A stretch of DNA of 64,000 nt from the human T2T-CHM13v2.0 reference genome, Homo sapiens: the NCBI RefSeq assembly GCF_009914755.1, contig NC_060925.1. One strand, given 5' to 3'. A program made the position numbers and the translations under genes. Below are positions 18,647 to 28,179 of the stretch, piece after piece. Every line of letters starts with the position of its first letter. Position 1 is the first letter of the stretch. Below the pieces are notes generated by a model. The model made no database searches. It was given only the letters and a program-made list of their open reading frames with translations, and was not told where the DNA came from.

Positions 18647-19089
18647 ATTATTATGGAGATATTTTGGTAAAAATGGAAAATAATGTAATATTTTATTCCA
18701 AGATTAATACTAGAGATGCAGTAAAGCTGCATTTATGGACAAATTACACAACAAGAGCATTCATTTTCTTAAGTACATCTGGTCAAACATATTTCCTGTA
18801 TGCTTTGGATGATGGCACAATACAAATACAGGACTATCCCTTACATCTGGAAGCACAAAGTATAGCTTTCACAACAAAAGACAAATGCCCATACATGGCA
18901 TTTCATAACAATGTTGCTCATGTTTTTTACTTTTTGGACAAGGGAGAGGCTCTGACAGTTTGGACTCAGATCGTCTATCCAGAAAACACTGGTCTGTATG
19001 TTATTGTGGAATCTTATGGCCCAAAAATATTACAAGAGAGTCATGAGATTTCCTTTGAAGCTGCCTTTGGATACTGCACCAAAACTCTG
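18647..19089 (+). CDS. CATSPERE: CatSper-epsilon coding exon (443 nt, phase 1 to 0; DYYGDILVKMENN...GYCTKTL)
   Basis: Acceptor ttttttccag/AT completes G+AT=Asp; donor CTG/gtaagc. Confidence 0.95.
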
Positions 19090-20166: not shown

Positions 20167-20174
20167 ATAATAGG

Positions 20175-22924
20175 TGTTATAAGTAAAATGTTTACTTAGA
20201 AACAGAATGCTTGTTCTTTGGTACTACAAGAAAAAAACAGCATTTAGACAAAAAATTTTCTTAGCAAGGCAGTTTTAGTTTCTGCAGAAAGGGTGCTCCT
20301 CACAGATGGAACAATGGCAAGAGTGCACCTGAATAAAGGAGGGAAGCAATTTTTATCCTTTACAGGGCTTGTCCTTGCTACTGTGTCTTGTCTCCATTGA
20401 CTGAAGCTAGACCTCACAATCTAAGCTGAACCTGACGGGCTAATAATTTAAAACTTTCCTAAATAGGTAAAGGCAATAGGGAACAAAGGAAAAAAGGAGG
20501 TTGCTTACGAAAAGACTTAGAAAAATAATAACATTCCTAAATAATAAAGGGGCATAGACTGCGAACTGGAACATGCCTGTGAGCACGTCCAGCACAGATA
20601 TCTCGGTTAAAGTACAAGGACACAGGATGTACTACATGCCTGTGAGCATGTCTAACAGCTACATAGGATAGGGCTTAGCAAAGAGTTATTAGCACAAAGT
20701 AAGGAGGCTTGAAGGCTTGAAGGAAGTTAGTCTTTAAAAGAAACTATTATTTCTAACACTTATGATTTATTCTTTAACAAGAAGGGAAACTTTGAAGAGG
20801 AAACTTTTTATTTTTACAATTCCTTCCTCTTGATTTTATAGTTTTTTTCTCTTCAAACTTTTTTTAACATGTTTGGCTTAGCTGTTTTGCTTGAGTTTTT
20901 AAAAGAAAAAGTTTTTCTGGTTGATGAAATGCTAGAGTAAAATGGATAGCCAGTTGAACTAGAGCACAAATACTGCTCTAATTATTTGGCAGAGTGTTCA
21001 GTAAATGTCCTCTATAATACTATTATACATTTGCTTAGGGATGAATAAGGGCGGACTGATGGGTCAGCTCTTGGAAGTGTCTGACTTCACTGCATCCTGT
21101 TAAGTTTCTAAGAAACTTAACAAACTTTAATAGTTTTATATTCAGGAGGCCTAATTACTTTTAAATTATACAATATTTCTTGCATAAATTCCCTTTTATA
21201 ACTTTTTTTATGACTTTCACAGACAATCTTTGACATGCCTTAACTTTCTGACTTCTTTTTACACTTTTTCTTCCTAGTCTTACCTTCTGTGTCTTTCTCT
21301 GATCTCTGTCTCTTTCAGTCTCTCGCTCACTTATTCTCTCCCTCTATCTCTCTCTCTCATTTGCGCTGTCTCCCTCCTGAGTTCTCCCACTCTTGCAGCT
21401 GGCAGGGCCAGGCAATGGCATGGGCCCTGCCCCAGAGCATGTGCCGCCATCTGTCTCTCCTGTTTCTTTCTGATTTTCCTTTTTACTTTCTCCCTTCCTC
21501 TCTTACACTTAGTTTCTTGGGCTGGGTGGGATCCTTGTGGCCACAGCCCAGGCCCCGGGCTGTTGCTGGCCCAGAGGCTTGGCAGGTGCCTGCCGTAAGT
21601 TGTACGATCATGCTCTTTCACCTCCTCTGCTCTCCTCCTGGCACCAGTCCTTGACCTCTTCTTCCACGCAGAGCCAGGCTAGGGAGAGGGACCTACCTCT
21701 TGGCTGCCGGGCTGCGCGGCATGGTATCCTGGCCCCGGCACACTCACACTTTCCTGCTCAGCTCTAACTTGCAGGCGTCCATGGCCAGCTGTCCTCCGAG
21801 GGTGGCAGGACGTACCTGAGCAGCACAGAAGGCTTGGGGCTCGACAGCTGGTGGCCTGGATGGCTCTAGCTGCATGGCTGGGTGCGAGGAGAGCATCCTA
21901 GCCACTGCCACTCTTCCAGGTGCTAGTAATCTACAACAATGTGGAGCTGCGCTTGCTGCTGTTGCTCTCTTTCTCTCTAACTTCCTCTCCTAGTTTCTCT
22001 TTCCTCTCTGCTGGTCTTTCCCTTGCCTCTGCCAGCCGCCTACGCTGCTGTTCTCCCCTCTCCTTCCCTTTCCCCTAGGGAGCAGCTGGTGGGAGTGGAG
22101 CTTAGCCTCTTTCTTCCACCGAGAAGAGAGGAAAGGGAAGTTTTGAATATTTTTCCTATTGCTGGAGGATTGTGTGAGGTTCAGTCTCTCCCTAATGGGG
22201 ATTTTTCACCTCTTTTTAACCTCTAAGACACCCTAAGAAATACTTCACCGCCTCCCATGGCTTTTCTTTCCTTAGTCCTGACTAAGGAATGCTCTACTGC
22301 CTCTGCGGTGTCTGTTTCCTTGGTATATCCTGTCCAAGGAATGTTTTACCACCCTGCGGCTTTCTTTCCTTAGTCCTGACCACCAAGGAAATACTTTACC
22401 GGCTCCTCCAGTGTTTCCTTCCTTGGCTCGTGCACAAGGTTACCTGGTCCACGTGGTATGTGAGGATCCTTTACTCCAGGTTGCCAGCCAGTTTCTTTCC
22501 ATATTGCTGAGAGTCCAGATTTATTCATCATACTGAGTGGGTCTCAATTCCTTACCCCTGAGGCCACTGCAGTGAGGCAGTGGGGCACCTCCTCATTAGA
22601 GAGGACTAGAGACTGCCCCCAGAGGAAAGTGTATCCCTGTATGGGTCACCATTTTGTTGTAAGTAAAATGTTTATCCAGAAACAGAATGCTTGTTTCTCG
22701 GTACTGCAAGGAAAAATTAGCATTCAGATAAAAAGTTTTCTCAGCAAGGCAATTTTACTTTCTGCAGAAAGGGTGCTCTCGCCATTGCTCCATCTGCGAG
22801 GAGCATCCTTTCTGCAGAAAGTACAATTGCCTTGCTGAGAAAACTTTTTATCTGAATGCTAATTTTTCCTTGCAGTACTGAGAAATAAGCATTCTGTTTC
22901 TGAATAAACATTTTACTTATAACA
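20175..22924 (-). mobile_element. Internally deleted HERV-I (LTR10-type) provirus: 3' LTR 20175-20818, internal 20819-22654, rearranged 5' LTR 22655-22924
   Basis: TG...CA LTR ends; PPT aagaggaaggaat on minus strand next to 20818; PBS TGGTGACCCATACAGGGA (22651-22634) matches the tRNA-Ile 3' end at 15/18; ATAGG TSD. Confidence 0.85.
22655..22924. repeat. Long inverted repeat (~124-bp arms, ~22-bp spacer) made of LTR U5
   Basis: Arms differ at 6 positions; explains the mirrored ORFs 22572..22838(+) and 22741..22971(-). Confidence 0.95.
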
Positions 22925-23184
22925 ATAGGTATAAATATACTGTGTATATTATTTTGTATAGTGCATTTCAAATTAATATCATAATGTGAGCATTTTACAT
23001 GTTACTTCAATTTCTTCTTAAAAACTGTGTAACTCAAATGGCAGTTTCTGTTCCCCACCTTCCATTTCTAGGCTCAGCTTCCTTAAGCACATAGAATAGT
23101 GAGCCTGCTATCTGATACAATGGAATGGAAGTGGTCAGTTAATTCCAAAGTCAGTGAAAGCAGAGAATAATAAAAAGTGAAACC

Positions 23185-28120: not shown

Positions 28121-28179
28121 ACACTAACATTTTATCAGAATGTAGATTATGAGAGAATATCTGATTACTTTGAGACACA
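28121..28179 (+). CDS. CATSPERE: CatSper-epsilon coding exon (59 nt; TLTFYQNVDYERISDYFET)
   Basis: cttttttcag/ACA ... CA/gtaagt; phase 0 to 2 matches both neighbours. Confidence 0.92.

What the first reader, a model, noticed from the sequence alone, without database searches (positions are those of the whole stretch)
20170..22929. Provirus with U5 at both ends: HERV-I/LTR10 element whose 5' LTR is an inverted U5 hairpin, still bounded by a TSD
Seen: on the minus (proviral) strand the order is TSD, inverted U5(+R) of ~146 bp, U5 of ~124 bp, tRNA-Ile PBS, a 1.8-kb deleted internal region, PPT, a complete 644-bp LTR, TSD. The promoter-side U3 is missing. The inverted copy ends exactly at the U5 att end (...TTATAACA, 22924). 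ATAGG lies directly outside both termini (20170-20174 and 22925-22929). The spacer (tcgccattgctccatctgcgag) is the reverse complement of the LTR sequence that normally follows the junction, and the switch falls at a short gtgctc / gag..cac inverted microhomology in the LTR. Known: integrase needs att ends and creates the TSD, and normal proviruses have one U3 end and one U5 end. Inference: after second-strand transfer, RT switched from plus strong-stop DNA to the displaced 5' end of the minus strand, ran off at U5, and integrase inserted a U5/U5 cDNA. This would be a germline fossil of symmetric-end integration that looks like a TIR transposon.
Basis: partly seen in the sequence, partly recalled or inferred. 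Interest (0 to 1): 0.85.

Follow-up and report, generated by a model that had tools for sequence, protein, structure and literature searches.

The report
Endogenous retrovirus with fold-back 5' end
An ancient retrovirus copy in a human intron has its left control region replaced by a back-folded copy of its own right end, and five similar copies elsewhere in the genome show that this was a repeated copying accident which the viral integrase still inserted.

Summary
On the minus strand, window 20170-22929 reads: 5-bp repeat, inverted R-U5, 22-nt loop, direct R-U5, primer binding site, about 1.8 kb of internal sequence, polypurine tract, 644-bp LTR, and the same 5-bp repeat. It is not a one-off. 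The same genome holds five more loci with the same fold-back junction. Two of them have perfect 5-bp flanking repeats, and two are "solo hairpins". Normal solo LTRs of this family also carry 5-bp repeats, so integrase inserted DNA with a U5 end on both sides, repeatedly. The junction lies in a 6-nt inverted repeat (GTGCTC/GAGCAC) about 30 nt downstream of a TATA-like box, which is the predicted RNA start. Minus-sense DNA ending there is predicted to fold with its 3' end paired. My preferred reading is self-primed minus-strand strong-stop DNA that served in place of plus strong-stop DNA; this reaction is known in vitro for HIV-1. Post-integration rearrangement is very unlikely. The name LTR10/HERV-I could not be verified. 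Ten literature searches found no description. I rate it a new variant of a known kind, of moderately high interest.

The parts
20170..20174 (.). Target-site duplication, right side of the provirus (ATAGG on the plus strand, CCTAT on the proviral strand)
   Evidence: It is identical to 22925-22929. Five bp is the family norm.
20175..20818 (-). Complete 3' LTR, 644 bp, TGT...ACA
   Evidence: it aligns end to end with other LTR copies at 81-87.5% identity.
20349..20357 (-). TATA-like box GATAAAAAT in the 3' LTR
   Evidence: It is conserved in normal copies. Its T lies 29 nt upstream of the G of GTGCTC. That this motif is the promoter box is an inference.
20321..20328 (-). 5' half of the R-start stem (GTGCACTC here, GTGTGCTC in most copies); predicted transcription start
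   Evidence: The fold-back junction of the hairpin corresponds to this position of the LTR.
20820..20831 (-). Polypurine tract AAGAGGAAGGAA
   Evidence: It lies one base upstream of the LTR start.
20832..22633 (-). Internal region, about 1.8 kb, non-coding remnant with an internal deletion
   Evidence: it is collinear with the 5' and 3' internal parts of normal proviruses (L027, L019, L008); no long open frame.
22634..22651 (-). Primer binding site TGGTGACCCATACAGGGA, preceded by AAA at 22652-22654
   Evidence: the same U5-PBS junction occurs in 4 normal proviruses and in the chr16 hairpin element. The tRNA-Ile assignment is recalled, not tested.
22655..22778 (-). Direct R-U5 arm (124 nt), starting at GAGCAC and ending at the U5 end
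   Evidence: 86.3% identical to the 3' LTR and 95.2% to the other arm.
22779..22800 (-). 22-nt loop, which is the first part of R in antisense on the proviral strand
   Evidence: The loop is antisense in 3 of 3 elements whose orientation is known.
22801..22924 (+). Inverted R-U5 arm (LTR sense on the plus strand), ending exactly at the U5 attachment end
   Evidence: 84.7% identical to the 3' LTR. With the loop it makes a full 146-nt R-U5.
22925..22929 (.). Target-site duplication, left side of the provirus

Best explanation
This is an endogenous retrovirus insertion whose 5' LTR was never made.

During reverse transcription, a minus-strand strong-stop DNA (tRNA-primed, a copy of R-U5) reached the 5' end of the RNA. 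Its last six bases (GAGCAC-3') folded back onto GTGCTC 22 nt upstream, in the complement of a stem-loop at the very start of R. Reverse transcriptase then extended this 3' end, copying R-U5 back and then the tRNA primer. The result is one strand reading U5'-R'-loop-R-U5-PBS.

That strand acted in place of plus-strand strong-stop DNA. Its PBS tail annealed to a full minus strand made from the second tRNA-primed strong-stop DNA of the particle. Both strands were then completed. The product is a linear duplex with a U5 attachment end on each side. Integrase inserted it and made the family's usual 5-bp duplication.

The accident recurred: at least six loci of this genome carry the same junction. 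Later recombination between the direct R-U5 arm and the 3' LTR gave 'solo hairpins'.

Shown: the anatomy, the recurrence, the duplications, and the predicted fold. Inferred: that the junction is the RNA 5' end, that two strong-stop DNAs were used, and that the second jump was between molecules.
For: 1. Anatomy and duplication in the window.

2. Recurrence.
- chr16:38405095-38413477 has hairpin, PBS, internal region and LTR, with CTAAT on both sides.
- chr4:172449992-172450768 has hairpin plus LTR, with GTGAC on both sides.
- chrX:69760532-69760801 is a solo hairpin flanked by TTCT.
- chr1:67840839-67841071 is a solo hairpin of a diverged subfamily, flanked by ATTTT/ATTTG.
- chr4:67.76 Mb is a truncated copy.
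- The junction pattern gave 6 hits and 0 control hits; 5 hits are hairpins and 1 is a normal LTR.
- The palindrome-centre pattern hit 4 loci and 0 controls.

3. Five bp is the family norm. Of 7 normal LTRs with host flanks on both sides, 5 have a perfect 5-bp repeat, 1 has 4 of 5, and 1 is perfect only after a one-base shift.

4. The events look independent.
- The chr4:172.45 hairpin arm is 93.7% (119 of 127) identical to its own 3' LTR and shares two variants seen in no other of the 33 aligned copies.
- The nearest neighbours of hairpin arms, apart from their own partner, are normal LTRs at least as often as other hairpins.

5. Junction position. Normal LTRs read GATAAAAATTGC...CAGGTGTGCTCTCGCC. 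The 6-nt microhomology starts 29 nt after the T of the TATA-like box.

6. Predicted fold. For 60-nt minus-sense DNA ending in GAGCAC-3' from 5 normal copies, the minimum-energy fold pairs the 3' terminus in 4 of 5 (10-bp stem, -10 to -11 kcal/mol, z -2.1 to -3.6). The 140-nt version folds the same way.

7. The loop is antisense on the proviral strand in 3 of 3 oriented elements. This is expected if the strong-stop DNA itself forms the 5' end of the plus strand.

8. The two ends are alike: the U3 end TGTAGAAAGTAAAA and the inverted U5 end TGTTATAAGTAAAA match at 11 of 14 positions.

9. Literature.
- Self-priming of minus strong-stop DNA at TAR is a described side reaction in vitro (passages).
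- Co-packaging of different RNAs is proposed for related HERV groups (passage in PMC4724089).
Against: - There are no transcription-start data. The R start is inferred only from the spacing to a TATA-like motif.
- Any fold-back would use this inverted repeat, so the junction position does not by itself prove a strong-stop 3' end.
- Self-priming is documented in the passages I read only in vitro and only for HIV-1.
- In the window the two arms are 95.2% alike, but only 84.7% and 86.3% like the 3' LTR. Equal branch lengths are rejected (p = 0.0009). This needs either two different templates or later arm-to-arm conversion, and I cannot tell which. At chr16 the three copies fit equal ages (p = 0.28).
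- Both arms of the window element and both arms of the chr16 element share a rare A at alignment column 109, seen in no other of the 33 sequences.
- The two hairpins of the diverged subfamily share loop variants. These are weak hints of common descent of hairpins.
- No orthologous or empty site could be examined.
- Only some normal copies were sampled: 40 of 790 and 40 of 476 candidates were scored.
Confidence: 0.55

Rival explanations
1. After the second strand transfer, the growing minus strand left the plus strong-stop template at the GTGCTC/GAGCAC microhomology. It copied the displaced 5' end of the same minus strand and ran off at U5. Integrase then inserted the product.
For: It gives exactly the observed sequence, including the antisense loop, if the switch happens after the first copy of the microhomology (derivation). 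It explains the exact U5 end and the duplication as well as the preferred model does. At chr4:172.45 the hairpin and its own LTR share private variants, as one template predicts.
Against: One tRNA-primed strand would have to form both the right LTR and the partner strand of the new left end. A duplex with two U5 ends has two 5' ends at the tRNA junction (inference from polarity). The plus strand would still start with U3 and would have no complement at the left end. Nothing makes reverse transcriptase stop at this point of a continuous template, whereas strong-stop DNA must stop there. In the window the arms differ from the 3' LTR three times more than from each other, although all three copies should then come from one strand.
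Confidence: 0.2
2. A heritable hairpin lineage. One founding hairpin element was copied again and again, with the hairpin passed on. The six loci are then descendants rather than repeated accidents.
For: Both arms in the window and both arms at chr16 share a rare A at column 109 that is absent from their 3' LTRs and from 29 other sequences. The two hairpins of the diverged subfamily share the loop variants ATT and GAT. All copies have the same junction.
Against: The element has no U3 promoter at its 5' end. Reverse transcription of a read-through RNA should rebuild a normal LTR by a jump within R (inference). The chr4:172.45 hairpin shares private variants with its own LTR. Hairpin arms are no closer to other hairpins than to normal LTRs. 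The window and chr16 elements are no closer to each other in the internal region (81.7%) than the window element is to a normal provirus (83.1%). Hairpins occur in two LTR subfamilies that each have many normal copies.
Confidence: 0.08
3. Post-integration rearrangement. A normal provirus lost U3 and gained an inverted R-U5 by fold-back repair or replication template switching in the host genome.
For: The window arms are 95.2% alike against about 85% to the 3' LTR, as if the duplication were younger than the insertion. Short inverted repeats promote such rearrangements.
Against: The inverted copy ends exactly at the U5 attachment end and abuts the duplication at three loci with perfect 5-bp repeats (chance about 1e-9), and nearly so at two more. 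The same junction occurs at 5 loci. The arms at chr16 (83.1%) and chrX (88.7%) are as diverged as LTR pairs of related groups, for which 10-19% is quoted.
Confidence: 0.04
4. Assembly artefact: a chimeric or fold-back read was built into the assembly.
For: Palindromes are a known artefact of some long-read library preparations (recalled).
Against: The arms are imperfect (6 differences in 124 nt). Six loci show the same structure with different flanks and different degrees of decay.
Confidence: 0.01

Closest known systems
TAR-dependent self-priming of HIV-1 minus-strand strong-stop DNA (Guo et al. 1997; I saw only its title in reference lists, and passages about it in PMC4668388 and PMC1919501)
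   Same: A stem-loop at the very start of R lets the 3' end of strong-stop DNA fold back and be extended on itself. This gives an R-U5 fold-back.
   Different: It is described there as an in vitro side reaction that competes with strand transfer and is suppressed by nucleocapsid protein. Here the product appears as part of integrated, germline-fixed proviruses of another retrovirus.
Solo LTRs formed by recombination between the two LTRs of a provirus
   Same: The solo hairpins at chrX and chr1:67.84 Mb are what recombination between the direct R-U5 arm and the 3' LTR would leave, with the flanking repeat kept.
   Different: The product is a palindrome of about 230-270 bp without U3, not an LTR.
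Concerted integration of donors with the same viral end on both sides, as used in integrase assays (recalled, not checked here)
   Same: Integrase joins two U5 ends and makes a duplication of normal length.
   Different: That is an in vitro design. These loci would be natural products in a germ line.
5' inversions of LINE-1 by twin priming (recalled)
   Same: An inverted 5' segment is made during reverse transcription, is flanked by a normal duplication, and recurs at many loci.
   Different: The enzyme and the primers differ. L1 inversions are not palindromes of the element's end and have no fixed junction.
Terminal-inverted-repeat DNA transposons and foldback elements
   Same: There are inverted ends of about 125-150 bp and a short duplication. 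The solo hairpins look like foldback elements.
   Different: There is no transposase. The ends are retroviral U5. The full copies carry a PBS, a polypurine tract and an LTR, and the junction lies at the predicted RNA start.

Membership tests
Retroviral provirus (ERV insertion) | LTR bounded by TG...CA with short inverted ends | tested here: met
   TGTAAAAAT...TTATAACA. Normal copies read TGTAGAAAG...TTATAACA.
Retroviral provirus (ERV insertion) | PBS next to U5 and a polypurine tract next to the 3' LTR | tested here: met
   TGGTGACCCATACAGGGA lies 3 nt after U5, and AAGAGGAAGGAA lies 1 nt before the LTR. The same U5-PBS junction occurs in 4 normal proviruses.
Retroviral provirus (ERV insertion) | Target-site duplication of the family's length | tested here: met
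   The window has 5 of 5 matching bases. Normal LTRs: 5 of 7 have a perfect 5-bp repeat.
Retroviral provirus (ERV insertion) | Two complete LTRs (U3-R-U5) in direct orientation | tested here: not met
   The 5' side has no U3. It consists of inverted R-U5, a loop and direct R-U5.
LTR10 / HERV-I or HERVIP10 (Repbase and Dfam names) | Similarity to the library consensus of LTR10 and its internal part | not testable with these tools
No Dfam or Repbase library is on hand.
LTR10 / HERV-I or HERVIP10 (Repbase and Dfam names) | PBS complementary to tRNA-Ile | not tested
   The best-preserved copies read TGGTGGCCCGTA. That this matches tRNA-Ile is recalled. No tRNA gene was fetched.
LTR10 / HERV-I or HERVIP10 (Repbase and Dfam names) | LTR length, duplication length and PBS type as listed in print | tested here: inconclusive
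   A chimpanzee survey table lists HERVI with a Lys PBS, a 4-bp repeat and LTRs of about 500 bp, and HERVIP10F with Ala, 4 bp and about 495 bp (PMC1779541, passages). Here the LTR is 644 bp and the repeat 5 bp. p53-type decamers in U3 fit what is said of LTR10 and MER61 (PMC3308033, whole text).
Product of self-primed minus-strand strong-stop DNA | The fold-back junction lies at the 3' end of strong-stop DNA, which is the RNA 5' end | tested here: inconclusive
   The junction microhomology starts 29 nt after the T of a conserved TATA-like box. There are no start-site data.
Product of self-primed minus-strand strong-stop DNA | The 3' end of the minus-sense strand is base-paired in its predicted fold | tested here: met
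   This holds for 4 of 5 normal copies as 60-mers, and for the single 140-mer tested.
Product of self-primed minus-strand strong-stop DNA | The outer end of the inverted arm is the tRNA-primer junction (the U5 end) | tested here: met
   The inverted arm ends at ...TTATAACA next to the duplication in the window, at chr16 and at chr4:172.45.
Product of self-primed minus-strand strong-stop DNA | The full R, including the loop, is in minus sense on the strand that continues into R-U5-PBS | tested here: met
This holds in 3 of 3 oriented elements.
TIR DNA transposon or foldback element | Inverted ends plus a duplication, with a transposase or copies bounded only by the inverted repeats and no retroviral parts | tested here: not met
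   The ends are retroviral U5. Full copies carry a PBS, a polypurine tract and an LTR. There are no open frames.

The most novel reading that the evidence does not exclude
Self-primed strong-stop DNA is not always a dead end. It can stand in for plus strong-stop DNA and yield integration-competent 'U5/U5 hairpin proviruses'. On this reading, such proviruses and their solo-hairpin remnants are a general, so far unannotated class of retroviral insertion. They would be found in other ERV families and among defective proviruses of present-day retroviruses. They would also be direct evidence that both tRNA-primed strong-stop DNAs of one particle can end up in one provirus.
Probability: 0.35. Interest if true: 0.8.

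Novelty: new variant of a known kind. Interest (0 to 1): 0.68.

Why it matters
These loci would be natural, germline-fixed records of two things known mainly from test tubes: self-priming of strong-stop DNA, and integration through two identical viral ends. They show that such products can be completed and inserted.

They define a recognisable signature: inverted R-U5, a loop equal to the start of R, direct R-U5, and a normal duplication. With that signature, other ERV families and proviral long-read data could be screened.

They also explain a small class of palindromic repeats of about 230-270 bp that repeat annotation would split into two opposed LTR fragments.

In this family, 2 of the 6 U5-PBS junctions found by pattern are of hairpin type. 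A likely reason is that hairpin proviruses have only 124 nt of direct repeat and so rarely collapse to solo forms.

Tried and rejected
- **Exact pattern.** TTCTGCAGAA...TTCTGCAGAA found only the window and unrelated tandem repeats, so I replaced it with degenerate junction patterns.
- **Candidate loci that are normal LTRs.** L069, L070 and C4:58827040 looked like partial junction matches but are normal LTRs.
- **Loop orientation.** I first took it as a test between the two reverse-transcription routes.
- **APOBEC-type editing of the 3' LTR.** Five of its 11 private changes are G to A at GA or GG, but the arms have G-to-A changes too. The numbers are too small, and I draw no conclusion.
- **Coding evidence for the family.** There are no long frames in the window element and no credible Pfam hit in 6 frames from related proviruses. 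The single hit, TetR_C_32, scores 18 bits against a cut-off of 27.
- **Literature.** None returned a paper that describes ERVs or proviruses with an inverted U5 in place of the 5' LTR.
- **Papers not obtained.** A 1985 paper on defective avian retrovirus DNA, which I recall as possibly relevant, could not be found or read. Guo et al. 1997 could not be read either.
- **The tRNA match of the PBS** was not tested.
Full report
**1. What is in the window**

Read on the minus strand, window 22929 down to 20170 contains the following, in order:
- CCTAT
- an inverted R-U5 that starts TGTTATAAG at 22924
- a 22-nt loop (22800-22779)
- a direct R-U5 (22778-22655) ending CTTACAACA
- AAA
- TGGTGACCCATACAGGGA (22651-22634)
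- about 1.8 kb of internal sequence
- AAGAGGAAGGAA (20831-20820)
- a 644-bp LTR (20818-20175) ending CTTATAACA
- CCTAT again

The repeat finder gives the hairpin arms as 125 nt, 95% complementary and 22 nt apart. It gives the inverted arm against the 3' LTR as 149 nt at 85%. The three-way alignment shows that the loop is the antisense of the LTR sequence just upstream of GAGCAC.

**2. It is not unique**

A search of the window's own genome with the hairpin (40 of 790 candidates scored) and with the loop region (40 of 476 scored) found other places that match both arms. After fetching and reading them, the list is:

| Locus | Structure | Flanks |
|---|---|---|
| chr16:38405095-38413477 | hairpin, AAA, PBS, internal region, and an LTR split by a foreign insertion of about 6.4 kb | CTAAT on both sides |
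| chr4:172449992-172450768 | inverted R-U5, loop, 13 nt of the direct arm, about 25 nt, then a full LTR | GTGAC on both sides |
| chrX:69760532-69760801 | hairpin only | TTCT on both sides; an 8-nt patch next to the loop differs |
| chr1:67840839-67841071 | hairpin only, from an LTR subfamily about 76% identical; arms 90.6% alike | ATTTT / ATTTG |
| chr4:67.76 Mb (L055) | 13 nt of one arm, loop and R-U5 of that same subfamily | not assessed with confidence |

A degenerate 29-nt junction pattern with up to 3 mismatches hit 6 places and no reversed-pattern control. Five of the hits are these junctions. The sixth is a normal LTR with point changes. An exact pattern for the palindrome centre hit 4 loci and no control.

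**3. Integrase inserted these molecules**

Normal LTRs of the family show 5-bp repeats. Of the 7 LTRs with host DNA on both sides, 5 have a perfect repeat at the fixed register, 1 has 4 of 5, and 1 (L043) is perfect only after shifting the boundary by one base.

Three hairpin elements have perfect 5-bp repeats directly outside an inverted U5 end and a normal U5 end. The chance is about 1e-9. The U3 and U5 tips of the LTR are alike at 11 of 14 positions, so a U5 end in place of a U3 end is a small change for integrase.

A rearrangement after insertion cannot explain an inverted copy that stops exactly at the attachment end at several loci.

**4. Repeated accident or inherited structure?**

The chr4:172.45 hairpin arm is 93.7% identical to its own 3' LTR. 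It shares two variants with that LTR that no other of the 33 aligned copies has. The two LTRs of a normal provirus on chr15 behave the same way.

Apart from their own partner, the hairpin arms have normal LTRs among their nearest neighbours at least as often as other hairpins. In the internal region the window element is 81.7% identical to the chr16 element and 83.1% to a normal provirus. Hairpins occur in two LTR subfamilies, each with many normal copies. All this favours independent events.

Against this, the arms of the window and chr16 elements share a rare A at one column, and the two hairpins of the diverged subfamily share two loop variants. I treat these as weak evidence, because only a small sample of normal copies was available.

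**5. Where the fold-back lies**

Normal copies read GATAAAAATTGCTTCCCTCCTTTGTTCAGGTGTGCTCTCGCCATTG...GCGAGGAGCACCC. Hairpins read ...AAAGGGTGCTC-loop-GAGCACCC. The join therefore falls inside GTGCTC, which is the reverse complement of GAGCAC 22 nt downstream.

The G of GTGCTC lies 29 nt after the T of the TATA-like box. This is the usual spacing of a start site (textbook knowledge; the identification of the motif is my inference). The inverted repeat would thus be a stem-loop at the very 5' end of R, as TAR is in HIV-1.

Minus-sense DNA ending in GAGCAC-3', taken from five normal copies, folds with its 3' end paired in 4 of 5 cases. The stem is 6+4 bp with a 13-nt loop, at -10 to -11 kcal/mol and z -2.1 to -3.6. 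A 140-nt version folds the same way. Extending that 3' end gives exactly the observed junction.

**6. Mechanism**

Self-priming of minus strong-stop DNA at TAR is described as a side reaction that competes with strand transfer and is held down by nucleocapsid protein (passages in PMC4668388 and PMC1919501).

If the self-primed strand goes on through U5 and the tRNA, it ends in a plus-sense PBS, just as plus strong-stop DNA does. It can then make the second jump onto a minus strand begun by the particle's other tRNA primer. That the second jump can be intermolecular is argued for HIV-1 (abstract of PMC5651808).

A linear duplex with U5 at both ends has two 5' ends at the tRNA junction, and each 5' end must come from its own priming event.

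The antisense loop in 3 of 3 oriented elements fits the preferred model.

**7. An unexplained detail**

In the window, the arms differ from each other at 6 of 124 sites but from the 3' LTR at 17 and 19 sites. Equal branches are rejected (p = 0.0009). At chr16 the three copies fit equal ages (21, 26 and 29 differences; p = 0.28), and the chrX arms are 88.7% alike.

A survey quotes LTR divergence of 10-19% for the HERVIP group (passage in PMC4724089). So the window's arm-to-LTR value is ordinary and its arm-to-arm value is low. Two explanations remain: the arms were homogenised later, or the hairpin and the 3' LTR came from two different co-packaged RNAs. I cannot separate them here.

**8. Name and novelty**

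I could not verify 'HERV-I/LTR10'. No repeat library is on hand. The tRNA-Ile match is recalled only. A chimpanzee ERV table lists 4-bp repeats and LTRs of about 500 bp for HERVI and HERVIP10F (PMC1779541), against 5 bp and 644 bp here. p53-type decamers in U3 fit LTR10 or MER61 (PMC3308033).

Ten full-text searches found no paper that describes such proviruses. Subscription journals and old scans are largely outside that library. One possibly relevant 1985 paper could not be retrieved.

**9. Verdict**

This is a real feature and it recurs. It is best read as a fossil of self-primed strong-stop DNA carried into an integrated provirus through two U5 ends. I rate it a new variant of a known kind, with interest 0.68.

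Noticed in passing
window 20571-20594 and 20634-20657 (U3 of the 3' LTR): A 24-nt unit is repeated 63 nt apart (family D7). On the proviral strand the units contain p53-type half sites, for example GGACGTGCTC-AC-AGGCATGTTC. This fits what is written about LTR10 and MER61 carrying p53 sites (PMC3308033).
   Followed up: partly
window 22654-22925, inside the CATSPERE intron between exons 18647-19089 and 28121-28179: Whichever strand is transcribed, the hairpin would form a stem of about 125 bp at 95% complementarity in the pre-mRNA of the host gene. This is a possible double-stranded RNA or editing substrate, like inverted Alu pairs.
   Followed up: no
L072 1984-8362 (chr16:38406583-38412961): The 3' LTR of the chr16 hairpin element is split by about 6.4 kb of foreign DNA. 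This DNA ends in a long AT-rich tandem array (TATATA/AAGTAT units).
   Followed up: no
L030 5143-5160 (chrX solo hairpin): Next to the loop, 8 nt (TAAAATTT) replace the expected GGTGCTCT with no change in length. The new bases are what follows the CTGCAG palindrome on the other arm, so this looks like a short conversion or template-switch patch.
   Followed up: partly
genome-wide: Only 6 U5-PBS junctions of this LTR type were found by pattern (0 control hits), and 2 of them belong to hairpin elements. Hairpin proviruses may survive as full elements because they have only 124 nt of direct repeat available for solo formation.
   Followed up: partly
window 20175-20323 (R-U5 of the 3' LTR): Of 11 changes private to the 3' LTR, 5 are G to A at GA or GG dinucleotides. 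This may be an APOBEC-type footprint that is absent from the hairpin arms. The numbers are too small to judge.
   Followed up: partly
L055 about 1470-1640 (chr4:67.76 Mb): The truncated hairpin lies in a CAAA-rich stretch. CAAAC occurs both just left of a possible remnant of the inverted tip and directly right of the U5 end. This may be a duplication, but the sequence is low-complexity.
   Followed up: no
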